The translations under genes and the position numbers were made by a program. Shown piece after piece: positions 18,748-35,600 of a stretch of 64,000 nt of DNA (positions are counted from its first letter, which is position 1; each line of letters opens with the position of its first letter). The stretch is from a virus: IMG/VR virus record IMGVR_UViG_3300046468_002660; one strand, given 5' to 3'. The notes under the pieces were generated by a model. The model was not told where the DNA came from, did no database searches, and saw nothing but the letters and a program-made list of their open reading frames with translations.

Positions 18748-18748
18748 A

Positions 18749-20074: not shown

Positions 20075-20108
20075 AAAAAACCTCAGGTTTCACACCTGAG
20101 GTTTTTTT
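20075..20108 (+). terminator. rho-independent terminator
   Basis: A6-CCTCAGGT-TTCAC-ACCTGAGG-T7. Confidence 0.9.
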
Positions 20109-20143
20109 GTGTAAACACACAAAAGGTAAAAGGAAAGTTTATT

Positions 20144-20428: not shown

Positions 20429-20464
20429 ATTTAAATATTAATATAATAAGGTAAAAGGTAAAAT

Positions 20465-21319
20465 ATGATAACAGAAAAAAACACACTATATTCTTTCTCT
20501 ATAAATATCGAAAAAGAAGTTGAAGAAGAAGTAGAGAAAAAAAGTAGAAAAAAGAACAAAGAAACAGGTAAAACTGAAGTTGTAACAACAACATCAATAA
20601 AAACTGTAAAAAAAGAAGTTCCATACAACGTATATATCAAGAAACCAAATAGAACAGAACTTGAAGATGGAGATATGTTTTATAGCTTGGAGCTAAATAA
20701 ATACATCAAAATGGGCTTGCTAACAAAAGCAATGCTTGCGAAGCAATACGGTAATCAAGGAGGAGTATGGTCTGAGAAAGAGCAAAAAATATATTCTGAA
20801 TTACTGTATAAAATGCACAGCAAACAACTTGAAGTTCAACAGTTTTCTTTGCTTGGAGATAATGGAAAGTTATCAGTAAGGCAGAAAGATAAGTTAGAAA
20901 CTGCAGTAAAGGAACTTGCTGAAATCAAGAAAGATCTTACAGAATATGAAATGATTCAAAACTCTCTGTTTGATCACACTGCAGATGTAAAAGCTAGGAA
21001 TAGAGCTATCATGTGGTATATTTTGCATATGACTTATTTCACAGAAGGTGATGAAGATGATCCTGTATTTGAAGATTTTTTTGAGGGGTTAGACTTTCAA
21101 GAAAAGTATAGCGACTATCAGGAAAAAGAAGATGATCAAGATCCTTTATATTCGGCAGCTATAGATAAGATTTCTTCAATTATGACGATATGGTATATTA
21201 GTGGCACTCAAGATAAAGAGGGTGTAGAAAGTATATTAAAAGAAATGAAGTCTATTGAGAAAGAAGAAGAAGAAGAAGAAGAAGAAGAATTAGAAGCTGA
21301 ACCAGCTTCGAATGAATGA
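20465..21319 (+). CDS. putative tail assembly chaperone
   Basis: Between tube and TMP; acidic tail. Confidence 0.55.
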   Translation: MITEKNTLYSFSINIEKEVEEEVEKKSRKKNKETGKTEVVTTTSIKTVKKEVPYNVYIKKPNRTELEDGDMFYSLELNKYIKMGLLTKAMLAKQYGNQGGVWSEKEQKIYSELLYKMHSKQLEVQQFSLLGDNGKLSVRQKDKLETAVKELAEIKKDLTEYEMIQNSLFDHTADVKARNRAIMWYILHMTYFTEGDEDDPVFEDFFEGLDFQEKYSDYQEKEDDQDPLYSAAIDKISSIMTIWYISGTQDKEGVESILKEMKSIEKEEEEEEEEELEAEPASNE

Positions 21320-22301
21320 AGATAATAAGTTTTTTGAAAATTTATTTTTAGAAATTAAAGATGGATTTTCTGAATTTGATTTTCAAGATCAAGTTCTGTA
21401 TATTAAACACTCTGATTTAAATCAGTTAAAAGTTATCAATGATAATTATGAATTCTTTTTGGGTAGAGCTAAAAAAATGGGAATCCCAACTGAAGAGCAG
21501 GTTTTGCAGGATCTTGAAGAAGGTGATTTATGGACTAAGAAAGATGAAAGTTTATATCAAAGCTTAGAGATCGAAATTAGCAACATCAAAAAAACTTTAT
21601 CAAACCTTTTTGTAGAAAAAGAAAAAAACAATCTTAAACAAAGGCTTGATGAAGCTGAAAAAGAATATTTAGAAAAAAAGAATATTAGAAGCGCGTTAAT
21701 GCTAAATTCTGCCGAGCAGTATGCAGAGCGCAAGAGTAATGAAAAATTTGTTTTTCATTCTTTGTACAAAGATAAAGAATGTTCTAATTTATTCTATAAT
21801 AATGATGAGTTTGATGAAATAGATAATAAAGAGTTAAGCGAGTTGTATGTGATATACAATGATTGTGTTGAAAAATTTTCAAATAAAAATTTAAAACAAT
21901 TATCTATAAGTCAAATGTTTACAAGTTTATTAAATATATACTCCAAAGACTTATCTAACTTTTTTAAAAAACACCCATTAGATCTAACTTTCTATCAAAT
22001 TAATTTATTGAACTATGGAAAGCTATTCTTATCAATTTTTCAAAACCATGAAATTCCTGAATCAATATCTAAAGACCCTGATAAAATTTTAGAGCATATA
22101 GACAAAAGCAAAAAAATAAAAAAAGAAAATTTAAAAGAAAAAAGTTCAAAATCGGACGGATTCTCTTACGCAGGAGCCACACAAAAAGAATTGGAAAAAA
22201 TGGGAGGAAGAAAAAAGAAAGGAGTTGATATTCATTCAATAGCAGATGAAAAAGGGGGCGAGCTATCAATGGATGATTTTATGAAAATCCATAAAAAATA
22301 G
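21312..22301 (+). CDS. putative tail assembly chaperone 2
   Basis: Immediately before the TMP. Confidence 0.5.
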   Translation: MNEDNKFFENLFLEIKDGFSEFDFQDQVLYIKHSDLNQLKVINDNYEFFLGRAKKMGIPTEEQVLQDLEEGDLWTKKDESLYQSLEIEISNIKKTLSNLFVEKEKNNLKQRLDEAEKEYLEKKNIRSALMLNSAEQYAERKSNEKFVFHSLYKDKECSNLFYNNDEFDEIDNKELSELYVIYNDCVEKFSNKNLKQLSISQMFTSLLNIYSKDLSNFFKKHPLDLTFYQINLLNYGKLFLSIFQNHEIPESISKDPDKILEHIDKSKKIKKENLKEKSSKSDGFSYAGATQKELEKMGGRKKKGVDIHSIADEKGGELSMDDFMKIHKK

Positions 22302-22331: not shown

Positions 22332-25300
22332 ATGAGTGTAGTAAATATACCAACTAGTGCGACTGGCTATCATCAAAGTATTGTTAGTCAAGCAACTACT
22401 GCCCAGAAAGCAGTAAATAGAATGCAGATGTCGCCAAGATTGAATCCTCAAGGAATTGTACAGCCATTAGGAAAAATTACAAATTCAGCGAGTGAATTCC
22501 AAAAATCAATGGATGCATCCGCAGCTCGTGTTTTTGCTTTCGGGGCTGCAGTTGGAGTGATTAATGGAATATCCGATGCGTTTAGAGGAATAATTCAAGC
22601 AACAGCTGAAGTCGAAAAGTCGTTAAAAGATATTCAAGTTGTTATGGAAGCAACGGATAGTGCTATGAAAAAATTTGGAGATGGATTGTTTGACGTAGCA
22701 AGAAACACAGCTACTAGTTTTCAATTAGTAGCAGAATCTGCAACAGAATTAGCTCGTCAAGGTTTGAGTTCAGAAGAAACTCTTGCTAGAGTAAATTCCG
22801 CTTTAGTACTGAATAGACTATCAGGATTAGGGGCCGTAAAATCTACAGAGACTTTAACAGCAGCTATAAACTCATTTAATAAAGAAGGGATTACTCATGA
22901 ACAAATTGTGAATCGAATGGCTAATGTCGATGCTGCTTTTGCTGTATCCTCCGCTGATTTAGCTGAAGCGATATCAAGAGCTGGAGCTGTTGCGCAAGAA
23001 TCAGGGGTTCAGTTTAACGAACTAGCTGCGATTGTAACCGCTGTCCAGCAAAGAACCGCCAGGGGTGGTTCTGTCATAGGTAATGGATTTAAAAGTATAT
23101 TTACGAGAATAAAAAGAAGTAGAGTTAGAGATGCTCTAGAAGAGATCGGAGTAAGCACCACAAATTTAGATGGTAGTTTTAGATCTTCAATTGATGTATT
23201 GAAAGATTACGCTGGAGTTTATGAAACTTTATCAGATTCTCAAAAGTCATACACTTCAGAACAAATTGCTGGAGTATTTCAAATACAGAATTTGCAAGCG
23301 TTAATATCTGATTTGAATGATGAGTACTCTGTGTATAATAGAGCTTTAGGTGTCGCTAATAATACAACTAATGAAGCCACGAAAAGAAACGAAGAACTAA
23401 ATAAAACTTTATCAGCTGTTTTTACGCAAACTTCGTTAACCGCAAAAGAATTAGCGGCTTCAATTGGAGAAATAGGTTTTTCGGACAACTTTAAAGAAAT
23501 TTTAACATTTTTAAATAATTTAGCGGGAAAGTTAAATGAAATGCTTTCGGAAAATAAAGGGAGTGAATTAGCTAAAGGCTTAGTTCGCGGAATAGGAGCT
23601 TTTCTGACGGGTCCTGGTTTAGTTATTCTTGGCGCGGCTTTTATTAAAATTTTTGCAATGGTAACTAAATTTGCAAAAGAAGCTTTTTCTGATTTGTTAG
23701 GGGTTAATAAAGAAACTAAAAGACAACAAAGTTTGCAAGTTGCTATTAGTCAAATATTATCAACAAACGCTGGCTTGTATCAAAAAATATTTGCAGCGGG
23801 AACCAGTACTGCGAAGCAAGAACAAATGATATTAAACATCATAAAGCAAGAAACCGCAGAAAGACTGAAGCAAGAAGCGGTGATCAAAAGAATAGCCGCT
23901 TCAAGTAGCTTGGTTGGTATCGGAGCATCTGATAAAGGTTTTGTGCCTATGGGGAAAAGAGGGGCTAAGAAAACAGGTAGAAAAACTTTAAATGCAGCGA
24001 ACGGTTTTCTTCCATCGTTTAATCAAGAAAAACGAGATATTAATAAAGGGGTTGGCGGAGCAAAGACAAGCGATAAACCAGTTTTATTAAAAAATCATAA
24101 GATGGGAAGGGGGCGCACAGAAAATGTAATCGCTCACACTGGCGAGTGGGTGATTAATAATTTTGGTGGTAGTGGAGGAACTGCAATATTTAACAGGGAT
24201 ATGGCAAAGCAGTATGGATTACCTAAAGAAGCAAAAAAAATTACCGCATCTGGAGGGCTTATTCCAAATTTTAGCAAGAAAAGAAAAGATACACTTACTA
24301 GACCTTCTCTTGAATTAGGTTGGTCTCCAGGCGGAAGATCCCAAATATCGCAAAAAAGTGATCCTTTTGATAAATTCACAGCGACAGTTAGCAGGATAGA
24401 ACAAGATAAAACAGCAGATGAAACAAAAGGTATCGTAAAAAAAGAATCAGGAAGATTCTTGCAACCTTATTGGGTTAATAAGAACAATAATAAGCAAGTA
24501 TCATCAGAGTGGAGTGGTTCAAATTGGGGAGGATCTAGCTACAAAGAGATAAGTAAGTTGCCCGAAGAAGAAAGGCAAAATTTTGTTAAAAAATATAAAA
24601 TACATTCAGAAAATTTTAAACAATTCAAAGCTAAAGGTTATGGACAATTAATGAAAACGTTTCCATACAATAATTCAAAAAAATATATTAAAGATATTGT
24701 AGATAGCGGGGGTTATTCTGGAAAGTCTCAACCTCAAGAATTAAAACAAAAATTTGCGGCTTTAAACATGAATTTATCAGGAGCTGCTGGGGAAATTAGT
24801 GGAGCAAAATATTTAAAAAAAATAGGGTATTCAGATATAAAATTTATTGCTGCTGGAAAATCTTTTGATTACACAGCGAGAAATAAGAAAGGGGATAAAG
24901 TTCTCTTCGAAAACAAAATGAAAGAAATGCAGAATATATCTGCATATCTTAAGAAAGGAGCCACAGAGTATTTAGGTACTATTGCTGCTCCAGGCATTAA
25001 AGATAATAAACCTCAAAATATAAATTTAGATTTAGTCAAATCTTCTGGGAGTCTATTATTTCCATCAGGGATTAATGCTGTTACTGCAAAAGATTCAAAA
25101 GAAACAAATTCAAAAATTACTCATAAAAATTTAGTGAAAGATTCTAAATTGAGAGAGCGGCTAGATAAAGAATTAGAATTAATATGGAAAAACCCTGACA
25201 TTAAAGATTCAGTTAAAAGCGAAGAAACTATAAGAAATTTTTTATTTCATAACGCAGAGTCAAAAATACCAAGATATTCATCAGGATTCGTTCCAAACTT

Positions 25301-28300
25301 CGGCCCTAGGTGGGGTAGATTTAAGAAGTATAACAAAGATAAGTCTCTTAAGGATTTACGAAAAAAACAAGCTGATAACAAACAGATGGAAGAAGCTTTC
25401 TATGTTAGATCTGCAGACGCTGCTCAAAGATTTCAAAGATTTAATAATAAATTTGGAGTAGAAAAAATTGACGATTTATTTAACGTACTTCCTTTTTCAG
25501 AAGGATATGTGCCGAATTTTATGATAAAAAAACCTGGCTTTGGTAGGAGCGGTTCAGTTTATTCCATGAATAGAGGAAAGGAGAAAGTTTTAAACGTATC
25601 TCATATTAGAGCTGAAGAAGGTGAATTTGGTTCAAGTATATATAAAAATTTGATGAAAGAAATTGAAAGTGCCGCTAAATCTGGACAACCATACACAAAG
25701 ATAGACGCTGGCTCTGTAATTGGACCGAGGATACCAAGAGCTTTGTTAGCTGCAAAAAAAATGTTAGACAAAAAAAGGCTTTCCTCGAATATTCCAAAAA
25801 TGACACTCGAAGGAGTTTTTATTCCTAGACAGCTAAGAAAGAGAGTAGAAGGGTTTAGGCAAGATAATTACTATAGAGAATCTGGTAAATTTCGAACAAA
25901 AGATCCAGCAGAATACTTACCTGGAGAAGAAGGTAAATTAATTAAATCTCTTCGAGCATTTGGTTTAGGTCGTAACGCTCATAAGCGCAAAGCGTTTGTA
26001 AGGTTAGAAGATTTACCAATTGGTAAGAATTTTTCAAAGGGATATATTCCTAATTTCAGGAATGTTACCTTGTATAGAGGGCAAAAGCAAAAAGAGTTAG
26101 ATTTACCAAATATTGGTAAAAATATGCCAAGTTTTGATGCAGCTAAAACCCCACAGGAAGTAATTGGTGTTATTCAAAAATTTGTAAAGTCTCATTCAAC
26201 AGGCCCATTATCTGGATACAGAAACATGGGAGAAGTTGACGGAAAAATGCCTTCAGGAGCAACATCATTTTCGACAAGTAGAAAAGTTGCCGAAAATTTT
26301 TCTAACTCTATTAATATAGGACAACCTGTTTTACCTGGCAAAATTTTTGAAAAAATAGTTCCTGAAAAAAACATTTTTAGCAAAAAAAAGTTGTTGAAAA
26401 TTTTTAATAAAGGAGCTAATCCAGAAAAAAACTTTTATCCAAAAGTTGATCAATTTAAGACTGCAATAAAATCTGGAGCGGTAGAAAAATGGGCTAAGAA
26501 AAATGGAGGAGTGTTCCTGAATGTAGCTGGAGAATATAACGATAAAAGACATTTAAGTTTAGCTAAAATGGACGCAGGAAGAATGCGTAGTAAATATGGA
26601 AAAGATATGGGCTCAATTGTACCTGAAATCGATGTGGGTAGGACTTTGAGTGGGAAAAGAGATATTTTCAGAAAAGAAAAAGAAGTTATGCATATTATGT
26701 CTAGAGGATACGTTCCTAATTTTTCGTTTAGAGGTGGTGCTCTTAAGAGAATTGCGACTAAAATGCATAAACCAGCAATAGAAGACCCAAAGGGGAAAAT
26801 ATTATACCAGGGAAAAAAGTATAGAGAAGCTAAATTTAACACTCCTGATTGGGATAACCCTAATGTAAAATGGATTAGCCCTGTAGCGCAAAGAATACAA
26901 GGTGGCAAACAAGAAGTTGAGGAATTTGCTAAATATTTATCGACTAGAAAAGATATTCCAGCTTATGTAGCTTCAAATTTCAAAAAGGGTTTAGAGAAAG
27001 AAAAAGCTGCTTTAGAAGAACAAAAAAAACGACATTACGAGCTTGGTAAGAAAATCAAAATGGGCAATGCAGGTTATTACGAAAGAAAAAATCATTTTAC
27101 AACTCCTTTGCCTGAAGATAATCCGTTTAGAGTAGAATTAAAATATCTTAAAAAAGATAAAATTAATGATCTTGTTCAGGGTTTCAGGAATAATTACTCA
27201 AAAGGATTTATTCCAAATTTTGCAGCTGGAGTCAAAACATCAAGAGGGTTTTTCTCTACCCAGCGAATAAATCGACTTAAAGGTGGGCAGGCAGCCAAAG
27301 ATCAAGATGGCAATAAAGTTTACATGAATATGTTTTCACCTGAAGATCGGAAGAAGATCAAAGGATTTCAAGCAACTTTCTCAAAAGAAAACATGGCTGC
27401 TACAAGACAAGTTTCTAGAGATAAAAAAAATGAAATGCAAACCATTGACGCTTCCAGGCAGGCAACCATGCTTGTAGCTACAAATAATTTAAGAAAGAGG
27501 GTTGATACAAAAATAAAACAAGGGAAACAAGATATAAGATTAAAGTACAGGGTAGAAGGATTGAAGCCTTCGAGATTAAAAAACTCAGAAGAAAAAATTA
27601 GAGGCAGAGTAGAGAACCTTATGCTTAAAGAATCTTCTTTTTTAGCTCAAGAAATGGCAGGAGCTGGCAACTTTGGAGCTAACACCCCTCCTGTTACAAG
27701 AATAGCAAATGCTGGTAGTGTAGGTTCTGCTGCAGGATCCATCTTTGAGACAGCTTTAAAGGCAGTTGGGAAAAATAAATTATTTACAAAAAATAATGCT
27801 AGTTTTGACATAGCTGGATTTCCAGATGAAAAATTGCAAAAATTATTTGGTTACTACACTCCTTTTGCTGATGCTAAAATTGGATTAAGCCCCGATACCA
27901 AAAGAGACTTTAATCAAAAATTGCTAAAACTGCCAAGTAGTCAGGCTGAAATAGGTAAGCAAGATGCAGTTAAACAACAAGCAGTATCTAGATCTTCTCG
28001 AAAGAATTTTGGGCCTCTAAGAAAATCTGAAGGTTTTATACCAAATTTTGCTATTAAAAAATGGGAAGCTCAAGATTTTATAAATAAAGGTTTAGCGAAA
28101 AATCTAAGAGACGCTAGTAAGAGGTTTACATCCAGAGATCATGAAATAATGTTTGGAGGTAAAAGATTTAATTCTAGCAGCCCAGGTATAAGCGTGAAGA
28201 AATTTGGACAAGAAAAATCTTTTGATGCAGATTATCAGAAAATGAAAGGAGTTAGATCTCAAGATAATTTTATATTTGGTCCTACTGTTAACAATAGAGA

Positions 28301-31300
28301 AGAAAGAAATTTCCAAATGTTATTAGCTCAAACACAAAGAATGAATTTGGAGGCAAAACAACAAAGAATAGCTAGAGAGCTTTCTAAAAAACAGCAAGGA
28401 ATTAAATCAAGAGATTATAAGCCTACTACCATAGATAAAATCTTTAAAACGAAATCAGTAAGATTTGATCAGATTAATTCCATGGGCAATTTAACAAAAA
28501 AACAATTTAAGCTTTATGGTGGCGCAAATAAAGATTTGACTACAGCTTTTCATAAAAAACAAAATCAACTAATGCAGTTATTAACGAATCCCCCTGAAGA
28601 TTTAGATACAGGCTTTAGGAATGGGAAAGGTTATTACAGTCCGCAGGTAGAACAGTTAGAAAAAGAATTAAAAGATATCAAAGATCAGAGAAAAAATTTA
28701 CAAGCAAAATATAAAAATATTTCAGATAAATCAATACTAAATAAGTTTCGAAAAAAATTTGGCGGAGAAAGAATTTTTGTATCCCCGAGGATGAGAAGGA
28801 TGTTAAGCAGAGCAGCTAAAGGTTTCATACCTAAACCAAGAAAACTTGAAGGTAAAGAGTATTCTCAGTTTAGCACTTCTTTAGCTAGGTATAATTCTAG
28901 AGTGTTGAAGGGTAGTGGAAAAAATAATCAGGGCGACATGCAGTCAAAAATGTTAGAGTCTTTAGATTCTAGAAAAATGTTTAAAATATCAAGAAGAAAA
29001 AGAGAAGAAACTTTAGGTAATATTAAACAATATCTTAATTCGGATATATTTAAAATGTTGCCACAAGAAATTAAAAATAAAGTAAATAATTATTATAAGA
29101 AACAAACTAAAACTTCAGGAGATAATGAGTATTTAAGGCATTCAAAAAATCCAAGTTTTACGGGAAGAATCAATAATTACGCGGGCGGATTTGTGTCTAA
29201 TTTTTCTCAACCATTACAGCAGGCAATAGCAAGAGAAGGAGTTGCCTTAAAAGAAAGAGGATTACCAAAATCTTCAATTAAAGTTGAACAATCAAATAAG
29301 TTAAAAAACAATAAAAATCCAATGGGGTTAGCTGTGACCAATAAATTTGACGAACCAGGAGGTCTTTTTCAAGGAATAAACCGAGCTAATCAAATGGGGA
29401 TAGATCCAAAGACTCATGGCATGTCCGAAGGGTACGTTCCAAATTTCAGGATGATACAAAAACTGATCCCAGGTAAATATTTAAAAGACTTAAATCGTAG
29501 AATGCATGCTGGAAAGTTTTTGAAAAAAAGAGGGGAGCGGGGGAACCCACAAAGTGGCAGTGGGTTTGGTCAAAATCTAGCAATGGGAGGAATGTTTGCA
29601 GCTCCTATGGCTAATGAAATGATGTTCGGGGGGCAAGAAAAACCCTTAGGAGTAGGCGCGTCTGCAGCCAGTGGCGCCATGACAGGAGCAGGCTTTGGAG
29701 CTATGTTTGGCGTTCCAGGAATGATTGCAGGGGCTGGCTTAGGAGCTGCCCATGGAGCAATAAGCTCTTACTCAAAAAAGGATGGAGTGGAGGCTAGCTC
29801 AAGAATGATGGAAGGGTTGAAGAAGTCAAAAGAAAAACTTGATAAAATTATGAATGACGGTTCAGCTATGGAAAGTTTTGGAGCTGGACTAATAGAGTTA
29901 AATCAAGCTATGGAATCAGGCGACCCTAAAGAAATAGTGGCTGCAAATAAAAAAATGAGAGAGTCTTTGATGAATATAGCTGATCCAAAACTAAGAGATA
30001 AGCTTCACGAAATTAGAAGTTCTAGCGTATCAGCTTCAGAGAAATTAAAAATGATGGGGGAAGCTATTAATGACGTAAAAGGCAGAGCTGAAGAATTTCA
30101 AGGGTTAATGAATGCGGGAGGAAAGTTTCAAGAACATACCCAGAAAAATGCAAAATTAGGTGAGGGGGCAATGGGTGCGATTGCTGATACGTTTTCAGCG
30201 ACTGCTGAAGGATTGATGAATTGGGAATGGCAAGGAGGTAATTACGCTAAAAAAAGAAGAGATAGGATGTCAGGAACATTTACTCAAACTGAAGAAGGAG
30301 AAGCTGCAGCAAAAGATACTGCCATGAGTTTTTTAAACCCGATTATGAAAAATAATGCTATAGAAGCTAGGAATCTTGCAAATGAAAGAATTGCTTCTGG
30401 AGCAGCTTCAAGAAGCATAGCTTCTGATAAAAAATTGATTCAAGATTTAATCAATAGCAATAAAAGATACATTGAAATAACGAAAGAGCGAGATGAAATA
30501 TCACGAGCTCAAAAAAGTGGAGAAATTGGTGAGAAAGAAGCGTTTCAAGGAATCCAAAATCTAAATTCAGAAAGAATTGATTTGGATAAAAATTATGCAA
30601 GAAAAAGAAGAGATGTTGAAGGCTTTAATGATTCTAGTATAGCAAGCTCCTTGATGGAAATTTATAAAAGTGGAGAATTTAATTTAAGCCAAGAAACTTT
30701 AAAAAAGTTTGAAGATATAGCAGATGGATTAGATGATGTAAGTGGTGAAATTTCCAATTTAAAAGGTTTATCTACAACAGAGATTGAAGTTAAAAGAAGA
30801 GAGGGTTTAGTGACAGACGCCAGTGCGGGTGTGGTTGATAGGGTAGCTTTGCAAGATTTTAATCAACAGGAAGCGGGGTTATTTAGATCGGGTCAATTTG
30901 AAGAAACAGAAGTAATTCAACAGTTAAAATCTAGTGGGCAAAATGCGGTAGCGGTGGAATTAATGAAGCAGCTTGAAAATGAAACTGGTGTACTTGCTCG
31001 AGCTTTCGCGAAACACTACGAAGATGCTAATAAAAAAATCGCTACCAGTTTTTCGGATTTGTCAAGTTCGATGGATGCAGCTAATACAACGTTATCAACC
31101 AGAGAAAGATTAGATCAAAAAACGCTTAGCATGTATCAAAAAATAATTTCCGCTCAGGATAGGATGAATTCTGTCATGGGGAACTACGCAAATGCTGTAA
31201 GTAAAGCTTCTGGGAATTTAGAAAACATGAATGATTTTTTGATGTCTGGAATTGATTATTTGGTAAGTACTGGATCAATGAAACAAAGAGAAGGTATTCA

Positions 31301-32663
31301 GCAAGCTGCAATAGTTCAAGGGAAAACTATGAAAGCTAGTCAAAGAATCGAAGAAAGTCAAGCCTTGTTTGAAATACTTCGGAGTAATGTCAATCTTGAT
31401 AGTATGATGAACTTAACTCGATCCGAAAGAAGAGAGTTGGGAGAAACTATACCTAACCCCTCCACAAAACTTGGAGAGTTTAAACAAGATACTCAAGAAA
31501 TGTACACTGGACAAGATAGTGTTATTGCGCAAAAATTTGATGAATTTTTAAAAGTTAATGAGGATGGCAATATTACACTGAGTGAGATTAAAGGGTTTCA
31601 GGCAGAACTTAGGACGGTAGGAAAAAGAGGAAATGATATTGCTGATGACATGAGTCGAATGTCTGAAAATTTTGCGATAAAAGCTCAGCAACAGAGAGAA
31701 AAGATGCTTCTACAAAATCAATTACAATTAGCAACACTAGCTAAGGATGAATTAGCTAAAAAAGGTCAGCTCGTGACTGAGAGTGATCTACAATTTTTAA
31801 CTGCTAATTCAAGCGCTATTGATATACCAAAAGCTCAAGATTTTGCAAACTTTGGCTCGAGAGGTGCAGGTCCAGTTAACACTGAAATGCTAAAACTTTT
31901 ACAAGTGACAGAGCAAGTTGCTGCTATACTAGGGATGCAACCACATGAAATGATGGGAGTCGATAAAGTAGATTACGACTATCAAAAGGCACAATATAAT
32001 CAAGATTTAATGGAGAGGAGTCTGAAAGCTGACACAGGTCAGTTACCACCAGGCATGCAAGAGGTTCTTGATAAGATGGCTGAAAACACTAAGAAAGACT
32101 ACGAGCAAGCTAAAAAATTTGACGAATTAATCAAAAAATCTTTATCAACTTTAACGGATTCTAAATCTGATGACCCTTTGATAAATTTAAATTTACAAAT
32201 GGCAACTTTAATTAAAGATGGACTTAAGATTCAAGAAAAGTCTGAATTAGCAAAAGAGATTGGGTTAGAAGTTGCTAAAAATTTACCCACAGGAAGTGGC
32301 ACAACTTCTGGAGATCCTCCTCCACCTGAATACATCCCACCTTCTGGTGAAGTAACCATAATTGGCTTAGATCAACTCACAACAAATTTGCAAACCACAT
32401 CAACAAATCTAGAGACTTATACAAATTCAATATCGGAAATGACAAATACTATGTCAAGGTTACCAGAAGTGTTAAAAACAGAGTTGCAGTCTGTTGTTTT
32501 AGAGCACAACGTAACAGGATCTATTGATTTTAATTTTAATTCAGATGTCGTGAGAAACACATTAGGGCCCGTCATGTTCGAACAGTTAAAAAGAACCATA
32601 GCTGAGCCTATGATATTAGATTATTTAGCTAGAGCTTTAGGTCCCAGAATGGACGTAGAATAA
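22332..32663 (+). CDS. tape measure protein (3443 aa) with a central array of motif-delimited cargo domains
   Basis: N-terminal TP901-like TMP domain (ELARQGL, AVSSADLAEAISRAG, IGNGFKSIFTRI), G/A-rich hydrophobic segments, helical C-terminus; 11 GxxPNF-type motifs between 24003 and 29447. Confidence 0.88.
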   Translation: MSVVNIPTSATGYHQSIVSQATTAQKAVNRMQMSPRLNPQGIVQPLGKITNSASEFQKSMDASAARVFAFGAAVGVINGISDAFRGIIQATAEVEKSLKDIQVVMEATDSAMKKFGDGLFDVARNTATSFQLVAESATELARQGLSSEETLARVNSALVLNRLSGLGAVKSTETLTAAINSFNKEGITHEQIVNRMANVDAAFAVSSADLAEAISRAGAVAQESGVQFNELAAIVTAVQQRTARGGSVIGNGFKSIFTRIKRSRVRDALEEIGVSTTNLDGSFRSSIDVLKDYAGVYETLSDSQKSYTSEQIAGVFQIQNLQALISDLNDEYSVYNRALGVANNTTNEATKRNEELNKTLSAVFTQTSLTAKELAASIGEIGFSDNFKEILTFLNNLAGKLNEMLSENKGSELAKGLVRGIGAFLTGPGLVILGAAFIKIFAMVTKFAKEAFSDLLGVNKETKRQQSLQVAISQILSTNAGLYQKIFAAGTSTAKQEQMILNIIKQETAERLKQEAVIKRIAASSSLVGIGASDKGFVPMGKRGAKKTGRKTLNAANGFLPSFNQEKRDINKGVGGAKTSDKPVLLKNHKMGRGRTENVIAHTGEWVINNFGGSGGTAIFNRDMAKQYGLPKEAKKITASGGLIPNFSKKRKDTLTRPSLELGWSPGGRSQISQKSDPFDKFTATVSRIEQDKTADETKGIVKKESGRFLQPYWVNKNNNKQVSSEWSGSNWGGSSYKEISKLPEEERQNFVKKYKIHSENFKQFKAKGYGQLMKTFPYNNSKKYIKDIVDSGGYSGKSQPQELKQKFAALNMNLSGAAGEISGAKYLKKIGYSDIKFIAAGKSFDYTARNKKGDKVLFENKMKEMQNISAYLKKGATEYLGTIAAPGIKDNKPQNINLDLVKSSGSLLFPSGINAVTAKDSKETNSKITHKNLVKDSKLRERLDKELELIWKNPDIKDSVKSEETIRNFLFHNAESKIPRYSSGFVPNFGPRWGRFKKYNKDKSLKDLRKKQADNKQMEEAFYVRSADAAQRFQRFNNKFGVEKIDDLFNVLPFSEGYVPNFMIKKPGFGRSGSVYSMNRGKEKVLNVSHIRAEEGEFGSSIYKNLMKEIESAAKSGQPYTKIDAGSVIGPRIPRALLAAKKMLDKKRLSSNIPKMTLEGVFIPRQLRKRVEGFRQDNYYRESGKFRTKDPAEYLPGEEGKLIKSLRAFGLGRNAHKRKAFVRLEDLPIGKNFSKGYIPNFRNVTLYRGQKQKELDLPNIGKNMPSFDAAKTPQEVIGVIQKFVKSHSTGPLSGYRNMGEVDGKMPSGATSFSTSRKVAENFSNSINIGQPVLPGKIFEKIVPEKNIFSKKKLLKIFNKGANPEKNFYPKVDQFKTAIKSGAVEKWAKKNGGVFLNVAGEYNDKRHLSLAKMDAGRMRSKYGKDMGSIVPEIDVGRTLSGKRDIFRKEKEVMHIMSRGYVPNFSFRGGALKRIATKMHKPAIEDPKGKILYQGKKYREAKFNTPDWDNPNVKWISPVAQRIQGGKQEVEEFAKYLSTRKDIPAYVASNFKKGLEKEKAALEEQKKRHYELGKKIKMGNAGYYERKNHFTTPLPEDNPFRVELKYLKKDKINDLVQGFRNNYSKGFIPNFAAGVKTSRGFFSTQRINRLKGGQAAKDQDGNKVYMNMFSPEDRKKIKGFQATFSKENMAATRQVSRDKKNEMQTIDASRQATMLVATNNLRKRVDTKIKQGKQDIRLKYRVEGLKPSRLKNSEEKIRGRVENLMLKESSFLAQEMAGAGNFGANTPPVTRIANAGSVGSAAGSIFETALKAVGKNKLFTKNNASFDIAGFPDEKLQKLFGYYTPFADAKIGLSPDTKRDFNQKLLKLPSSQAEIGKQDAVKQQAVSRSSRKNFGPLRKSEGFIPNFAIKKWEAQDFINKGLAKNLRDASKRFTSRDHEIMFGGKRFNSSSPGISVKKFGQEKSFDADYQKMKGVRSQDNFIFGPTVNNREERNFQMLLAQTQRMNLEAKQQRIARELSKKQQGIKSRDYKPTTIDKIFKTKSVRFDQINSMGNLTKKQFKLYGGANKDLTTAFHKKQNQLMQLLTNPPEDLDTGFRNGKGYYSPQVEQLEKELKDIKDQRKNLQAKYKNISDKSILNKFRKKFGGERIFVSPRMRRMLSRAAKGFIPKPRKLEGKEYSQFSTSLARYNSRVLKGSGKNNQGDMQSKMLESLDSRKMFKISRRKREETLGNIKQYLNSDIFKMLPQEIKNKVNNYYKKQTKTSGDNEYLRHSKNPSFTGRINNYAGGFVSNFSQPLQQAIAREGVALKERGLPKSSIKVEQSNKLKNNKNPMGLAVTNKFDEPGGLFQGINRANQMGIDPKTHGMSEGYVPNFRMIQKLIPGKYLKDLNRRMHAGKFLKKRGERGNPQSGSGFGQNLAMGGMFAAPMANEMMFGGQEKPLGVGASAASGAMTGAGFGAMFGVPGMIAGAGLGAAHGAISSYSKKDGVEASSRMMEGLKKSKEKLDKIMNDGSAMESFGAGLIELNQAMESGDPKEIVAANKKMRESLMNIADPKLRDKLHEIRSSSVSASEKLKMMGEAINDVKGRAEEFQGLMNAGGKFQEHTQKNAKLGEGAMGAIADTFSATAEGLMNWEWQGGNYAKKRRDRMSGTFTQTEEGEAAAKDTAMSFLNPIMKNNAIEARNLANERIASGAASRSIASDKKLIQDLINSNKRYIEITKERDEISRAQKSGEIGEKEAFQGIQNLNSERIDLDKNYARKRRDVEGFNDSSIASSLMEIYKSGEFNLSQETLKKFEDIADGLDDVSGEISNLKGLSTTEIEVKRREGLVTDASAGVVDRVALQDFNQQEAGLFRSGQFEETEVIQQLKSSGQNAVAVELMKQLENETGVLARAFAKHYEDANKKIATSFSDLSSSMDAANTTLSTRERLDQKTLSMYQKIISAQDRMNSVMGNYANAVSKASGNLENMNDFLMSGIDYLVSTGSMKQREGIQQAAIVQGKTMKASQRIEESQALFEILRSNVNLDSMMNLTRSERRELGETIPNPSTKLGEFKQDTQEMYTGQDSVIAQKFDEFLKVNEDGNITLSEIKGFQAELRTVGKRGNDIADDMSRMSENFAIKAQQQREKMLLQNQLQLATLAKDELAKKGQLVTESDLQFLTANSSAIDIPKAQDFANFGSRGAGPVNTEMLKLLQVTEQVAAILGMQPHEMMGVDKVDYDYQKAQYNQDLMERSLKADTGQLPPGMQEVLDKMAENTKKDYEQAKKFDELIKKSLSTLTDSKSDDPLINLNLQMATLIKDGLKIQEKSELAKEIGLEVAKNLPTGSGTTSGDPPPPEYIPPSGEVTIIGLDQLTTNLQTTSTNLETYTNSISEMTNTMSRLPEVLKTELQSVVLEHNVTGSIDFNFNSDVVRNTLGPVMFEQLKRTIAEPMILDYLARALGPRMDVE
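24003..29447 (+). repeat. dispersed peptide repeat [S/A]xG[F/Y/L][I/V/L]PNF, 11 copies inside the TMP
   Basis: Motif Gly codons at 24003, 24255, 25284, 25503, 26040, 26706, 27204, 28032, 28821, 29187, 29430 (three copies are variant: GFLPSF, GFIPKP, GFVSNF). Confidence 0.92.
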
Positions 32664-32691: not shown

Positions 32692-35600
32692 ATGAATTTT
32701 AATAATGTAAGCTTGTTATCCATATCAGAACAACAAAATAGTTTTGGTGGTGATTTAAGTTTTCATAAAATTAAAAATATATCTATAACTGGATATTTAC
32801 TCGACCTACAAAATACTGATGGGGTAAAAAGTATTATTGAGCAAGCAAATGATATATTTGAAATTCCAGATGCTCTAGCTAGTGATGATAGTTCAATACT
32901 TAACGCAATACAGGGTATTGAAATTAATGGAGTCGATTATGGAGAAGGCTTTGTAACTTCTTTTTCTGTTGATGGAGATAGTATACAAACTGCAAATTAT
33001 GAAGCAGAATTAGTTGTAAAAGAAGAGGGAGATTTAAAGGATATAATATTAGCGCAAAATCTATATCCAGAAACAGCAACAGGAACAAGTACACCTTTAG
33101 ATAATAAATTAATTTTTAGTGATTCAAATTTAACAGATGAAGATTTAAAATATTTAGAAAATTTTGATGAAAATTTATCTTTCACTACAGATGCTAGTAA
33201 CAAAGGATCTTTTACTCATCAAATTAATTGCACTTTTAAACACAGAGAATCGTTAATACCTTCAAGAAAAAATATATGGAGCAATAGTTCAATACAACAA
33301 TCAAAACTTAAGAATTTAAAAAATAGAGGTAAAGGATCTTTAAAAGTTTTAGCTAATCAAGTTAGCTCGTATTCATTAAATTTAAATGCTGGAGATTATG
33401 TTCTACAGTTTGATTACTTGGGGCAAGATTCTCAATCTTGGGGTAGTGCTAGTGTTGATTTCGAAAATGAAAATTATAGTCTTGATAATGTTGCTGGTAT
33501 TAAAAAAATAGAAGTTAACTTAACCACAAGTAAGACAGTTTCAATATCTTTAAACGCAAATTCAACAAATAATACTTTTTTTGATAATTTAAAATTATTT
33601 AAAAAAGATGAACTGCCGTTACAGAAGAGCAGGGAGTTAGCTAATTTTTTATTAGATAATAACCCTAACTACCCAGTAATACAAAGTAGTTACAACGATA
33701 AATATAAAAACTCTTCTAGTTTTGATAATTTTTCATATACAGAAAGTTTTGACGAAGTTAATCTTACTTACTCAAAATCTAGAACTATAGAAAATGATGC
33801 GCTGCAAAATGGCTCAGACATATCTTTGTCTCAAAATTACGCTGTTAATTATTTACCAGAAGGAGTTATAGAAATAACTGAAGTATCAAACTTACAACTT
33901 TTAAAAAATAAAACTGATAATAATTTAAAAAATTTCGCAACAAGTGTTGTTAATGGTTCGTATTCAAGATGTTTATCAAAATTAGAGGGGTATGAAGATT
34001 ATTTTACCTATGGTTGCCCAACAAATACATCGACAGAAATAAATAAAAATAATTTACTTTCTACCCCGATATCAAAATCAATAACATATAATATAAATAA
34101 AGGGTTAGCAACCATCCAGGTTGTATACTCTAATCATAATAGTTTAAAATTTAATGGTGGACCTTATAATCATGAACACCAAGAGTCTATTTCTGAATTT
34201 GATGGTTATTATATAATTAATATATCAGGAGTAATTCAAGGAGAAGATGAAGCTTTAGAGAATAAAAATGCTTACGCTAAAAACGGTCTTGATGATGCAA
34301 TTAGCGGACTAGCAACAAGAATATCAGAGATAAAAACAAATATAGGGATAAGCTCAACTTTTAGAGAATTATCGAGAACAATAGACGCTAATACTTCTAT
34401 TGGTGAAATTTCCTATGACATAGAATATAGTGATAAAAAATCACTCGAAGGTTACACTGATGCTGATGGAAAAAAAATTGCAAAATCATACGAAATCTCA
34501 GTAGCAATAGATAATTCTAGTAGGATTTATAATAACTTTTCAGTAAATTGTAAAAATATCGCTCAATTACTAGGAAATTTGTTTTCACCAAAAACAATAA
34601 CAGTTTCTATCGATTTAAATGGATACAAGAACGTTACTCAAATTGAACTATATAACGCAGCTAAGTCTATATTAACATCACAAAATTTATTATTTGACGA
34701 TGAAAACTCAAACAACTTTTTAACTGAAGAGAATTATAATTTTTCAGAAAAACAAAAATCTTTATCTTACACAAGGGCATCTTTTGATTTAAGTTCTTGT
34801 CCTGTTCCAACAATAACAGCAACAGAGGGATTTGGTTTTTTAAACGATTTCAAACATCCACCTTTTACACCAACTCCTGAGACTATAACTTTTGAGCCTG
34901 AGATATTTGATATTTACCCAATTACAATTACATCAACCCCTGATTTTAATTTTAACTATACTCCTTACCAAGCTACGATAATACCTGAGGAGACACCAAC
35001 AACAACTCAAACAGAAACGTTTACTCCATTTACCCAAACAACTTTTCCAACTGCCACCGAAACAGAAAACGTTAGTCAACCAGATCCTACTTCTACTCCC
35101 ACGCTAAATTCGTATTTTTATAGAGCTTATATACCAGATAATTGGAATAATAATATTGCAAATTTAGCTCCAGGGGGTAATATAATATTAGGGTATAAAT
35201 GTTTGGATGAAGGAGGTTCTTTAAATAATCCAAATTTCACTTTTATTAACCAAAGTTACGCGGAAGATTCATCCAATATTGTTAAAGATTGTTATAGGGG
35301 GATAGGTGATAATGGACAAGCTTTCGGGTCTTTTTTATTTGAAATGCCTCCAGAAATAACGCCAACACCATTAGTTGATCAATGTACTTTATACACAGCT
35401 ACTATACCAGATTTTTGGGTTGGAGCAATTGGCGATTTAGTTTCTTCTTCAACCTCTTTTAATATTATTGGTGGTTATAAAAATTCAGCTGCTTTCTTAT
35501 ATTCTAATTTAAGTAGTTCTAGTGATTTAATAAAATTATCTGACAATAATAGCTCTCATCCTGATTTTAATTCAAGTAGCAAAGAAGTTTATGCTGGCCC

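What the first reader, a model, noticed from the sequence alone, without database searches (positions are those of the whole stretch)
24003..29447. Tape measure protein carrying a motif-delimited array of about 10 unrelated cargo domains (candidate injected effector polyprotein)
Seen: the middle ~1800 aa of the TMP are punctuated by 11 motif copies: AANGFLPSF, ASGGLIPNF, YSSGFVPNF, FSEGYVPNF, FSKGYIPNF, MSRGYVPNF, YSKGFIPNF, KSEGFIPNF, AAKGFIPKP, YAGGFVSNF and MSEGYVPNF. The segments between them are about 78, 337, 67, 173, 216, 160, 270, 257, 116 and 75 aa. They are mutually unrelated, K/R-rich and unlike a helical TMP, and several carry enzyme signatures. The motif is conserved as protein but its codons vary, which points to selection on the peptide. 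Established: TMPs are ejected into the cell at infection and some are proteolytically processed; phage 'polyvalent' proteins and T4 Alt deliver enzymes with the DNA. Inference: the motif is a protease site or folding/export tag that releases a cocktail of anti-host or anti-defence effectors, with cassettes gained and lost between relatives.
Basis: partly seen in the sequence, partly recalled or inferred. Interest (0 to 1): 0.92.

Follow-up and report, generated by a model that had tools for sequence, protein, structure and literature searches.

The report
Tape measure protein with swappable enzyme cassettes
A 3443-residue phage tail tape measure protein carries ten independently folding, strongly basic cassettes in its middle, including a predicted ADP-ribosyltransferase and a nuclease-like domain. 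Each cassette is joined by the same 9-residue motif, and related uncultivated phages swap cassettes exactly at that motif, which looks like a modular way to deliver proteins into the host through the tail.

Summary
ORF 22332-32663 (3443 aa) has a PF10145 tape-measure N-terminus and 11 copies of A-[AS]-x-G-[FLY]-[IV]-P-N-[FY] at exactly the stated positions (0.17 expected by chance).

The motif is the whole linker between compact domains. AlphaFold models of three cassettes are confident, while the motifs have pLDDT below 50 (one copy 64-76).
- **Cassette c4:** an ART fold with an invariant R / S-T-S / E-x-E.
- **Cassette c3:** an invariant E..D..ExK that aligns on the Hjc catalytic residues.
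- **Relatives:** they carry GNAT, SNase and HTH cassettes.

The array is bracketed by two homologous ~70-aa "bookend" domains. The second one defines a family of 1092 protein clusters, almost all giant proteins from metagenomes and none from sequenced phage isolates.

DNA homology blocks between close relatives begin and end at motif copies, and one cassette indel is a clean motif-to-motif deletion. Every cassette is basic (array net +168), the protein has no cysteine, and hydrophobic segments flank the array.

Delivery into the host and cleavage at the motif remain inferences, because no protease was found. The scan noted this same stretch in an overlapping window and found no look-alike on other DNA. 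I rate it a new variant of a known kind (polyvalent or virion-delivered effectors) and of high interest.

The parts
22332..32663 (+). Whole tape measure protein gene, 3443 aa (P0001)
   Evidence: ORF list and translation. The identical protein is found on contigs from at least 4 independent samples.
22332..23993 (+). Conventional TMP N-terminal part (aa 1-554). PF10145 covers aa 123-314 and a hydrophobic TM-like segment covers aa 417-450.
   Evidence: PF10145 at E 2.8e-28, 99.6 bits against a cut-off of 33.2. PHROG TMP families reach E 1.5e-44, all on aa 14-486. Hydropathy scan.
23994..24020 (+). Junction motif 1, AANGFLPSF (aa 555-563)
24021..24245 (+). Cassette c9 (aa 564-638), the first 'bookend' domain. 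It is near-universal in the family and homologous to c1.
   Evidence: Found in 41 relatives. Alignment A9. hhalign against c1 gives probability 96%, E 1.5e-9.
24246..24272 (+). Junction motif 2, ASGGLIPNF (aa 639-647)
24273..25274 (+). Cassette c3 (aa 648-981), a probable PD-(D/E)xK (restriction-endonuclease-fold) nuclease. Invariant residues are G817, E821, D846, E860-x-K862 and K875.
   Evidence: Alignment A5 of 22 sequences. The PDB profile top hit is Hjc resolvase 1gef at E 0.12, with KGxxGE / FDL / ExK aligned on its catalytic residues. The nearest named ESM-Atlas clusters are Tox-REase-7/2/5 and Mrr_cat at score 0.84, which is a lead only.
25275..25301 (+). Junction motif 3, YSSGFVPNF (aa 982-990)
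   Evidence: This is the left breakpoint of the c23 indel relative to P0002.
25302..25493 (+). Cassette c23 (aa 991-1054), function unknown. It is absent from the 89%-identical relative P0002.
25494..25520 (+). Junction motif 4, FSEGYVPNF (aa 1055-1063)
25521..26030 (+). Cassette c7 (aa 1064-1233), function unknown. It has a conserved PYTKIDAGSIIGPRIP block.
   Evidence: Alignment A10. No PDB profile hit.
26031..26057 (+). Junction motif 5, FSKGYIPNF (aa 1234-1242)
   Evidence: pLDDT is below 50 in model mde200521d86d.
26058..26696 (+). Cassette c4 (aa 1243-1455), an ADP-ribosyltransferase-fold domain. It has R1249 (LYRGQ), S1314-T1315-S1316 and E1449-x-E1451.
   Evidence: These residues are invariant or nearly so in 21 sequences of 38-95% identity. 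The AF2 model has pLDDT 74 and pTM 0.74, with the three motifs on strands 17-24 and 84-87 and at the start of strand 224-229. VIA-align top hits are almost all ARTs: TreX Z 7.0, pertussis S1 5.2, EcPltA 5.1, TccC3 5.0, Scabin 4.9 and LT 4.8. Foldseek returns the same families at E about 1.
26697..26723 (+). Junction motif 6, MSRGYVPNF (aa 1456-1464)
   Evidence: pLDDT is below 50.
26724..27194 (+). Cassette c10 (aa 1465-1621), function unknown
   Evidence: Alignment A11. No meaningful PDB hit.
27195..27221 (+). Junction motif 7, YSKGFIPNF (aa 1622-1630)
27222..28022 (+). Cassette c2 (aa 1631-1897), the commonest variable cassette of the family. It has a nearly invariant G..G...E1806, D1826 and D1847-A-K1849, so a PD-(D/E)xK-like signature is possible but unconfirmed.
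   Evidence: Alignment A6. No PDB or Atlas hit. It is unrelated to c3 apart from the motif.
28023..28049 (+). Junction motif 8, KSEGFIPNF (aa 1898-1906)
   Evidence: A DNA homology block with P0003 ends here.
28050..28811 (+). Cassette c43 (aa 1907-2160), function unknown. It is replaced by unrelated sequence in P0003.
   Evidence: Only sub-threshold family hits.
28812..28838 (+). Junction motif 9, a degenerate copy AAKGFIPKP (aa 2161-2169)
28839..29177 (+). Cassette c13 (aa 2170-2282), a compact helical domain with no fold match
   Evidence: The AF2 model m795a55bc94ba has pLDDT of roughly 63-97 per 10-residue block. The best Z is 5.1, with nothing standing out.
29178..29204 (+). Junction motif 10, YAGGFVSNF (aa 2283-2291)
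   Evidence: pLDDT is below 50 between two confident domains.
29205..29420 (+). Cassette c1 (aa 2292-2363), the second 'bookend' domain and the family-defining module (NP.GLAVTN..DEP core)
   Evidence: 73 copies were aligned, with invariant R, E, N, G, N, E and P. The AF2 model is an alpha/beta domain with pLDDT 91-94. 1092 representative clusters match at E<=1e-3.
29421..29447 (+). Junction motif 11, MSEGYVPNF (aa 2364-2372)
29559..29771 (+). Glycine-zipper-rich hydrophobic segment (about aa 2410-2480), directly after the array
   Evidence: Seven overlapping [GAS]xxxGxxx[GAS] words fall in one 60-aa window, and the position is similar in close relatives. Glycine zippers in TMPs are linked to membrane channel formation in PMC10240207.
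29832..32663 (+). Acidic C-terminal TMP part (aa 2501-3443, pI 5.0)
   Evidence: Composition. It is homologous over its full length only in close relatives.

Best explanation
This is the tail tape measure protein of a large uncultivated phage, used as a chassis for a modular cargo array.

Architecture. A standard TMP N-terminal part ends in a hydrophobic segment. A glycine-zipper segment and an acidic C-terminal part lie at the other end. Between them sit ten compact, independently folding, strongly basic and cysteine-free cassettes. Each cassette is joined to the next by the 9-residue junction A-[AS]-x-G-[FLY]-[IV]-P-N-[FY]. The array is opened and closed by two homologous ~70-aa bookend domains.

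Cassette content. The cassettes are drawn from a pool of at least about 200 families. These include an R-S-E ADP-ribosyltransferase and restriction-endonuclease-fold domains in this protein, and GNAT, SNase and HTH domains in relatives. Cassettes are exchanged between phages by recombination at the junctions.

Inferred mechanism. The array travels inside the tail tube as part of the TMP and leaves the virion first at infection. The two hydrophobic segments insert in the cytoplasmic membrane. The positively charged array ends up on the cytoplasmic side, where its enzymes modify host proteins and cut nucleic acids at the very start of infection. The junction motif is most likely a processing site that frees the cassettes, as in a viral polyprotein. 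Less likely, it is a recognition peptide.

Shown here: the anatomy, the domain independence, the ART fold and signatures, the family and the shuffling. Inferred: delivery, membrane topology, cleavage and targets.
For: TMP identity:
- PF10145 scores 99.6 bits and PHROG TMP families match the N-terminal part. Terminase and portal lie upstream.

Motif array:
- 11 copies against 0.17 expected, found only in this ORF.
- In 129 related loci, every motif-bearing ORF is a giant ORF.

The motif is the linker:
- In the c4 model the first strand, which carries the catalytic Arg, starts 2 residues after motif 5. The last strand, which carries E-x-E, ends right at motif 6. Both motifs have pLDDT below 50.
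- In the c13-c1 model two domains are confident (c1 91-94; c13 mostly above 80, with dips to about 63) and motif 10 between them has pLDDT below 50.

Enzymes:
- c4 has invariant R / STS / ExE, and its ART-dominated structural hits reach Z 7.0.
- c3 has E..D..ExK aligned on the Hjc catalytic residues, and Tox-REase families are its nearest feature neighbours.
- A GNAT domain lies inside a motif-delimited cassette of P0053.
- GNAT, SNase and HTH appear among 140 cassette representatives.

Family:
- 68 relatives were found by word search.
- 1092 clusters match the c1 profile, nearly all 2000-5300 aa.
- There are 683 motifs against 18 in the shuffled control across 136 further representatives.
- 954 motif-flanked segments fall in 206 clusters.

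Shuffling at the motif:
- Cassette order differs between relatives.
- 61% of protein HSP ends lie within 12 aa of a motif, against 12% for random placement.
- DNA blocks shared with P0003 end at aa 649, 1061, 1907, 2286 and 2373, all of them motif positions.
- The c23 indel relative to P0002 is a motif-3 to motif-4 deletion.
- Identity to P0003 swings from 99% (c10) to 33% (c3).

Common physical constraint on unrelated cassettes:
- pI is 9.7-10.3 in every cassette, and the array is more basic than its flanks in 151 of 158 relatives.
- There are 0 Cys in 3443 aa against 1.16% in the other ORFs (P about 4e-18).

Flanking membrane-type segments: with the TMP glycine-zipper precedent in PMC10240207.
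Against: - There is no direct evidence that the array is in the virion, is ejected or is cleaved.
- No peptidase domain or HExxH occurs in the protein, and no recognisable protease lies next to it.
- Folded domains of 17-37 kDa on three chains would not fit side by side in a tail tube about 4 nm wide (own knowledge), so the cargo would have to be stored unfolded or staggered.
- The individual structural scores for c4 are modest (Z at most 7.0, Foldseek E about 1), and no ART sequence family matches.
- Seven of the ten cassettes have no assigned function.
- Two of the 11 junctions are degenerate (PSF, PKP), and relatives tolerate lost junctions.
- Absence of cysteine is also seen in the head-module ORFs but not in the tail-tip ORFs, so it is only weakly specific.
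Confidence: 0.6

Rival explanations
1. Tethered multi-enzyme string. The array is delivered as above, but the junction motif is never cleaved. It is a conserved joint that keeps domains independent and lets cassettes recombine. The enzymes work while still attached to the membrane-inserted TMP at the entry site.
For: The motifs are short, low-confidence linkers. No protease was found. Hydrophobic segments on both sides would anchor the array. Recombination breakpoints sit in the motifs. Lost or degenerate junctions are tolerated.
Against: A passive linker or a recombination joint does not need P at 96%, N at 92% and F/Y at 97% over 1162 instances. This holds all the more because the codons vary, so DNA identity is not what is kept. 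Junction conservation this tight resembles the cleavage sites of viral polyproteins (own knowledge).
Confidence: 0.25
2. Producer-cell polyprotein. The middle is excised at the motifs before or during tail assembly. The cassettes act as late proteins in the infected cell or are packaged elsewhere, and only the N- and C-terminal parts measure the tail.
For: This would solve the space problem in the tail tube. The N- and C-terminal parts alone (about 1600 aa) would give a plausible tail of about 240 nm at 0.15 nm per residue (own knowledge). The bookend domains c9 and c1 are homologous and could hold the two halves together.
Against: An ART and nucleases make more sense at entry than at the end of infection. 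Uniform basic charge and absence of cysteine across unrelated cassettes point to a shared physical passage, not to free cytoplasmic enzymes. The window's other enzymes carry 1-2.8% Cys. A measuring protein cut in two has no precedent (own knowledge).
Confidence: 0.1
3. Structural filler. The cassettes only add length or fill the tube of a very long tail and have no effector function. Their enzyme-like motifs are relics.
For: TMP length in the family varies from 1942 to 5756 aa. Most cassettes have no recognisable function.
Against: Catalytic residues are invariant in c4 across sequences down to 38% identity, and in c3 down to 24%. The cassettes are globular alpha/beta or compact helical domains, not extended helices. 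Rapid cassette turnover is typical of conflict systems, not of a ruler.
Confidence: 0.04
4. Assembly or gene-calling artefact, such as a chimeric contig or fused ORFs.
For: The protein is unusually long and comes from metagenomes only.
Against: The identical 3443-aa ORF is present in at least 4 independent samples. Hundreds of relatives share the same architecture.
Confidence: 0.01

Closest known systems
Polyvalent proteins of phages and conjugative elements (Iyer et al. 2017, PMC5512222)
   Same: One very large virion-associated polypeptide strings together unrelated effector domains (ART, GNAT, nucleases). It is proposed to enter the host with the DNA and to evolve by domain shuffling.
   Different: Those proteins are head-packaged or conjugation-delivered. 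They are characterised by a zincin-like MPTase, which is thought to process them. The paper never mentions tape measure proteins. Here the chassis is the TMP, no peptidase domain or HExxH is present, and domains are separated by one fixed junction motif and bracketed by bookend domains.
Tape measure proteins with embedded enzymatic domains (e.g. T5 pb2 peptidase, mycobacteriophage TM4 Rpf-like motif; own knowledge)
   Same: A TMP carries a catalytic module that is ejected and acts on the host at infection.
   Different: The known cases have one or two cell-wall-directed modules. Here there are ten modules, up to 14 motif copies in relatives, of cytoplasm-directed types (ART, nuclease, GNAT, HTH), in a motif-delimited and rapidly shuffled array.
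Sle1-type TMP-related effectors of actinobacterial contractile injection systems (PMC13277306, PMC11126660)
   Same: A TMP-derived scaffold is packaged in a tail-like tube and carries an exchangeable functional domain. It is described as a 'reconfigurable' platform.
   Different: Those have a single C-terminal functional domain in a bacterial CIS, not in a phage, with no repeated junction motif and no array.
Polymorphic toxins (CdiA, Rhs; own knowledge)
   Same: A short conserved motif (VENN, PxxxxDPxGL) marks the boundary where variable toxin domains are swapped. In Rhs it also marks a cleavage site.
   Different: Those have one variable tip per protein and an adjacent immunity gene. Here many cassettes lie in series inside a virion protein, and no immunity gene is evident.
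T4 Alt and internal proteins (own knowledge; cited in PMC7824862)
   Same: An R-S-E ADP-ribosyltransferase is packaged in the virion and injected to modify host proteins at once. Internal proteins carry a short targeting peptide removed by the prohead protease.
   Different: Those are separate head-packaged proteins, not part of the tail ruler.
Viral polyproteins with conserved protease heptapeptide sites (e.g. potyvirus NIa sites; own knowledge)
   Same: The same short motif sits at every domain junction and is conserved across related viruses.
   Different: No protease has been identified here and cleavage is unproven.

Membership tests
TP901-family phage tail tape measure protein (PF10145) | PhageMin_Tail domain above the gathering score | tested here: met
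   99.6 bits against a cut-off of 33.2, on aa 123-314. Ten PHROG TMP families match.
TP901-family phage tail tape measure protein (PF10145) | Gene lies in the tail module, after chaperone-like genes and before tail-tip genes | tested here: inconclusive
   Terminase and portal lie upstream, and four ORFs of 564-1087 aa lie downstream. The immediate neighbours match no family.
TP901-family phage tail tape measure protein (PF10145) | Hydrophobic or glycine-zipper membrane-type segments | tested here: met
   aa 417-450 and about 2410-2480.
TP901-family phage tail tape measure protein (PF10145) | Chain length sets tail length | not testable with these tools
   Needs electron microscopy of particles.
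Polyvalent proteins (Iyer 2017) | Several unrelated effector domains in one virion-linked polypeptide | tested here: met
   ART, REase-like, GNAT, SNase and HTH in relatives.
Polyvalent proteins (Iyer 2017) | MPTase or zincin-like peptidase domain for self-processing | tested here: not met
   No HExxH in P0001, and only 16 of 209 relatives have one. No peptidase family hit.
Polyvalent proteins (Iyer 2017) | Delivered into the recipient with the DNA | not testable with these tools
   Needs virion and infected-cell proteomics.
R-S-E (cholera-toxin-like) ADP-ribosyltransferases: cassette c4 | ART split beta-sheet fold | tested here: met
   The AF2 model has pTM 0.74. Nearly all of the 50 best VIA-align hits are ART-superfamily chains: TreX Z 7.0 (rmsd 2.4, 102 aa) and pertussis S1 Z 5.2. 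Z values are modest, so the strength lies in the consistency of the list.
R-S-E (cholera-toxin-like) ADP-ribosyltransferases: cassette c4 | Arg on strand 1, S-T-S on strand 2, E-x-E at strand 5, in that order | tested here: met
   R1249, S1314-T1315-S1316 and E1449-x-E1451. R, S1314, T1315 and both Glu are invariant and S1316 is at least 90% conserved in 21 sequences. They lie on strands 17-24 and 84-87 and at the start of strand 224-229. The STS to ExE spacing of about 135 aa is longer than usual (own knowledge).
R-S-E (cholera-toxin-like) ADP-ribosyltransferases: cassette c4 | Match to a curated ART sequence family | tested here: inconclusive
   No Pfam, PHROG, NCBIfam or PDB-sequence hit. 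Absence of a hit does not exclude a divergent member.
R-S-E (cholera-toxin-like) ADP-ribosyltransferases: cassette c4 | NAD+-dependent transfer activity | not testable with these tools
   Needs a biochemical assay.
PD-(D/E)xK nucleases: cassette c3 | E ... D ... (D/E)xK in order, conserved | tested here: met
   G817/E821, D846, E860-x-K862 and K875 are invariant in 22 sequences of 24-93% identity.
PD-(D/E)xK nucleases: cassette c3 | Similarity to a known member with catalytic residues aligned | tested here: inconclusive
   Hjc resolvase 1gef is the top PDB profile hit at only E 0.12, although the three motifs align. Tox-REase families are the nearest feature neighbours at 0.84, below the 0.9 trust level.
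PD-(D/E)xK nucleases: cassette c3 | Restriction-endonuclease core fold | not tested
PD-(D/E)xK nucleases: cassette c2 | E ... D ... (D/E)xK in order, conserved | tested here: inconclusive
   E1806, D1826 and K1849 are at least 90% conserved, and the position before A-K is D or E. There is no supporting hit and no profile similarity to c3 beyond the junction.
Protease-processed viral polyprotein | Same short motif at every domain junction, conserved across relatives | tested here: met
   Logo from 1162 instances: P 96%, N 92%, F/Y 97%, with A/S at -2 and +6.
Protease-processed viral polyprotein | A cognate protease, or evidence of cleaved products | tested here: inconclusive
   None was recognised in the protein or in the neighbours. 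The neighbours are too divergent for any family to be called.

The most novel reading that the evidence does not exclude
The tape measure protein is a true self-contained polyprotein delivery device. The A-[AS]-x-G-[FLY]-[IV]-P-N-[FY] junction would be cut by an unrecognised phage or host protease, or by asparagine-mediated self-cleavage at the invariant P-N-F (as at the Asn-Phe site of tetravirus coat proteins; own knowledge). A cocktail of up to a dozen free effectors stored in the tail lumen would then be released into the host cytoplasm ahead of the DNA. The bookend domains c9 and c1 would keep the measuring halves together. This would be a new route of phage protein injection and a naturally programmable cassette platform, spread over more than 1000 protein clusters of uncultivated phages.
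Probability: 0.3. Interest if true: 0.92.

Novelty: new variant of a known kind. Interest (0 to 1): 0.82.

Why it matters
How tailed phages bring proteins into the cell ahead of their DNA is known only for a few head-packaged proteins. This finding points to a large, entirely uncultivated group of phages: 1092 protein clusters and at least 119 IMG/VR contigs, with no sequenced isolate. In these phages the tail ruler itself appears to be the vehicle, carrying interchangeable enzyme cassettes.

It offers three things:
- A catalogue of about 200 mostly unknown cassette families. These are candidate host-takeover or anti-defence effectors, already cut into domain-sized units by a recognisable motif.
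- A simple, testable junction motif whose cleavage, or lack of it, can be checked in vitro.
- A possible natural template for loading proteins into phage tails or tail-like particles.

It also raises a structural question: how does 1800 residues of foldable cargo per chain fit in a tail tube?

Tried and rejected
- **Family searches on cassettes:** Pfam, PHROG and NCBIfam searches on the ten cassettes gave nothing above threshold.
- **Cultured phages:** tblastn of the array and of a typical c1 copy against 50,697 GenBank phage records gave no match. Megablast of 20 kb also gave none.
- **First IMG/VR scan:** the scan with the single protein found nothing. A degenerate DNA pattern for the c1 core later found at least 119 contigs.
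- **Whole genome:** none is held for this window.
- **Multi-cassette alignment:** one alignment (A1) for a 1091-aa fold was discarded, because MAFFT overlaid unrelated cassettes.
- **Search for shorter free-standing homologues:** only 4 hits, all fragments or contig-end pieces.
- **PDB sequence-profile searches:** nothing useful for c1, c4, c2, c9, c7 and c10.
- **Fold searches:** the c13-c1 model gave no standing match, with best Z 5.1 on c13. c1 was barely tested because c13 filled the list. The ESM-Atlas shape search of c4 gave only TM 0.45 rows.
- **Complex prediction of three copies of c1:** no verdict, score 0.00, controls not run.
- **Atlas feature search of c2:** no usable hit.
- **Tail tube or sheath identity of ORF 18811-20055:** could not be settled.
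- **Ideas considered and dropped:**
  - Prepilin-peptidase G|F site: there is no following hydrophobic helix or Glu.
  - 2A-like ribosome skipping: the consensus differs and it is not known in bacteria.
  - Regular tube-docking repeat: the spacing is irregular, 67-337 aa.
  - Internal translation starts after each motif: Met is not enriched at +6.

Full report
**1. The observation**

The window holds one ORF of 3443 codons at 22332-32663 on the + strand. A search for G[FYL][ILV][PS][NSK][FP] finds 11 copies. The glycines are at residues 558, 642, 985, 1058, 1237, 1459, 1625, 1901, 2164, 2286 and 2367, which is nt 24003-29447. Shuffled versions of the protein give 0.17 matches on average and at most 3. 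The motif occurs nowhere else in the six frames of the 64-kb window, and the codons differ from copy to copy.

**2. What the gene is**

Residues 123-314 match PF10145, the phage minor tail / TP901 tape measure family, at 99.6 bits against a cut-off of 33.2. Ten PHROG tape-measure families match residues 14-486. Nothing beyond residue about 490 matches any Pfam, PHROG or NCBIfam family.

Upstream lie a large terminase and a weak portal match. Downstream lie four ORFs of 564-1087 aa. The other structural genes are too divergent for any library. The identical protein is encoded on contigs from at least four independent samples, so it is not an assembly artefact.

**3. Anatomy of the protein**

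- **N-terminal part (aa 1-554):** it ends in a hydrophobic segment at 417-450.
- **Array (aa 555-2372):** ten cassettes of 64-334 aa.
- **After the array:** a glycine-zipper-rich hydrophobic stretch at about 2410-2480, then an acidic part with pI 5.0.

Every cassette is basic, with pI 9.7-10.3 and a net charge of +168 over the array. In 151 of 158 relatives the array is more basic than its flanks. The protein has no cysteine at all, against 1.16% in the other ORFs of the window (P about 4e-18). The family median is also zero.

**4. The cassettes are independent domains and the motif is the whole linker**

- **c4 with its two flanking motifs (21-sequence alignment):** the AlphaFold2 model has pLDDT 74 and pTM 0.74. 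The first strand begins two residues after motif 5. The last strand ends at motif 6. Both motifs have pLDDT below 50.
- **c13-c1 (70-sequence alignment):** the model has two confident domains, with c1 at pLDDT 91-94 and c13 mostly above 80 but dipping to about 63. They are separated by motif 10 at pLDDT below 50.

**5. What the cassettes are**

- **c4:** Arg1249 (LYRGQ), Ser1314-Thr1315-Ser1316 and Glu1449-x-Glu1451 are conserved in 21 sequences down to 38% identity. All are invariant except S1316, which is at least 90% conserved. They lie on strands 1 and 2 and at the start of the last strand of the model.
  - The exhaustive structural search returns almost only ADP-ribosyltransferases: TreX Z 7.0 (rmsd 2.4, 102 aa), pertussis toxin S1 5.2, EcPltA 5.1, TccC3 5.0, Scabin 4.9 and LT 4.8.
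  - Foldseek lists the same families at E about 1, including 'PolyVal' ARTs of phages.
  - Each score is modest. The consistency of the list, together with the catalytic triad, makes the ART assignment well supported.
- **c3:** G817/E821, D846, E860-x-K862 and K875 are invariant.
  - Its profile's best PDB hit is the Holliday-junction resolvase Hjc, at only E 0.12. However, KGxxGE, FDL and ExK are aligned on the enzyme's catalytic residues.
  - The nearest named clusters by language-model features are restriction-endonuclease-fold toxins, at score 0.84, which is a lead only.
- **c2:** it has a similar E..D..[DE]AK pattern but no other support. It is unrelated to c3 beyond the junction.
- **c13:** a compact helical domain without a fold match.
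- **c7, c10, c23 and c43:** unassigned.
- **Relatives:** a GNAT acetyltransferase sits inside a motif-delimited cassette (P0053 aa 1359-1414). Among 140 cassette representatives, Pfam recognises GNAT, SNase, CI-type HTH and HhH domains. These are all cytoplasm-directed functions rather than cell-wall hydrolases.

**6. Bookends**

The first cassette (c9) and the last (c1) are homologous (hhalign probability 96%, E 1.5e-9). c1 is the family hallmark. In 73 aligned copies R, E, N, G, N, E and P are invariant. A profile of it finds 1092 representative clusters (936 at E<=1e-10) among 1.84 billion proteins, nearly all 2000-5300 aa long.

**7. The family and the shuffling**

A word-based search with the array found 68 relatives, all TMPs of 1942-5756 aa. 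Cutting them at the motif and clustering the pieces shows the same cassettes in different orders and combinations. For example, P0001 reads 9-3-23-7-4-10-2-43-13-1, P0004 reads 3-2-7-10-4, and P0008 reads 3-2-19-7-8-23-44-1.

- 61% of protein alignment ends lie within 12 aa of a motif, against 12% for randomly placed motifs and a maximum of 39% in 2000 trials.
- At DNA level, homology with P0003 exists only as three blocks: aa 2-649, 1061-1907 and 2286-2373. Every internal end of these blocks is a motif.
- The 89%-identical P0002 lacks c23 through a clean motif-3 to motif-4 deletion.
- Identity to P0003 ranges from 99% (c10) to 33% (c3).
- In 136 further representatives there are 683 motifs against 18 in a shuffled control. 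All have c1, none has c3 and only 7 have c4.
- 954 motif-flanked segments fall into 206 clusters, 122 of them singletons.
- The motif logo over 1162 instances is A-[AS]-x-G-[FLY]-[IV]-P(96%)-N(92%)-[FY]-A.
- In 129 related loci the motif occurs only in giant ORFs.

**8. Distribution**

There is no match in 50,697 GenBank phage records, for either the array or a typical c1. A degenerate pattern for the c1 core hits at least 119 IMG/VR contigs of up to 194 kb. It also hits four MAGs: Crocinitomicaceae, Flavobacteriaceae, Cellvibrionales and Neomarinimicrobiota. The group appears widespread in environmental samples and uncultivated.

**9. Mechanism**

The anatomy and the evolutionary behaviour are shown. 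The following steps are inferred.

- The array is part of the TMP inside the tail tube and leaves the virion first.
- The hydrophobic segments on both sides insert in the membrane. TMP glycine zippers are linked to channel formation in PMC10240207.
- The highly positive array comes to lie in the cytoplasm, as expected from the positive-inside rule and a membrane potential that is negative inside (own knowledge).
- Unrelated cassettes share basic charge and lack of cysteine. This argues that all must pass the same physical route.
- The junction motif is far too conserved for a passive linker, and its conservation is at protein level, not DNA level. Its placement at every domain boundary resembles protease sites of viral polyproteins.
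- No protease was found. Cleavage therefore remains the leading but unproven reading. A non-cleaved, tethered enzyme string is the main rival.
- A trimer test of c1 gave no verdict.

**10. Comparison with what is known**

- **Polyvalent proteins (PMC5512222):** the closest concept. They share the ART, GNAT and nuclease repertoire and the idea of delivery with the DNA. That paper does not mention tape measure proteins, and its hallmark processing peptidase is absent here.
- **TMPs with single cell-wall enzymes** (own knowledge).
- **Sle1-type TMP-derived CIS effectors with one swappable domain** (PMC13277306).
- **T4 Alt**.
- **The demarcation motifs of polymorphic toxins** (own knowledge).

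Each of these shares one aspect. None combines a TMP chassis, a fixed junction motif, bookend domains and a serial, rapidly shuffled cassette array. I found no paper describing this.

**11. Verdict**

It is a new variant of virion-delivered multi-domain effectors, with an unexplained junction motif and a large unexplored cassette pool. The scan had noted the same stretch in an overlapping window. No look-alike on other DNA was on record.

Noticed in passing
window 61761-64000 (+), runs off the window end: An ORF with a ~130-aa N-terminal domain is followed by more than 600 aa of near-perfect Thr/Ala/Glu repeats (units such as TATATE; DNA periods 6 and 18, about 94 copies). This is a mucin-like, probably O-glycosylated protein. 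It sits next to the ORF cluster that an earlier scan note reads as glycosyl- and sulfotransferases; that reading was not checked here.
   Followed up: partly
window 12296-17875: Six of the seven head-module ORFs have no cysteine at all and one has a single Cys. The tail-tip ORFs (32692-42581) and the metabolic genes carry 0.9-2.8% Cys.
   Followed up: no
window 12296-22301 and 32692-42581: Sixteen structural-module ORFs match no PHROG family and no Pfam family above threshold. The virion module of this phage is essentially unannotatable by sequence.
   Followed up: partly
window 13898-14566: A 222-aa ORF in the usual position of a prohead protease or scaffold has a sub-threshold match to the serine peptidase family S31 (E 0.012). 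It is a candidate to test against the junction motif.
   Followed up: no
relatives P0039, P0040, P0056 (proteins): In these 4100-4500-aa relatives, c1- and c9-like bookend domains also flank long (800-1560 aa) rod-like segments and recur near the C-terminus. The bookends may therefore be general joints, not only array brackets. P0074 and P0056 have 7 c1-like stretches each.
   Followed up: no
relative P0005 aa ~1700-1760: The junction after the ART cassette has decayed to GHMPYN and fuses c4 with the next cassette. P0002 likewise fuses c43 with c13. This shows that single junctions can be lost.
   Followed up: partly
PDB 9k3a_B (rank 19): A chain of the cyanophage A4 pre-ejectosome gives a weak ART-fold match (Z 3.0) to c4. 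This hints that ejection proteins of podophages may also carry ART-like modules.
   Followed up: no
window 10471-11541 and 47044-49485: A nucleotide-sugar epimerase/dehydratase-like gene lies inside the head module (PHROG 540, E 1.3e-66). There is also a class I ribonucleotide reductase large subunit (PHROG 84, E 7e-232).
   Followed up: no
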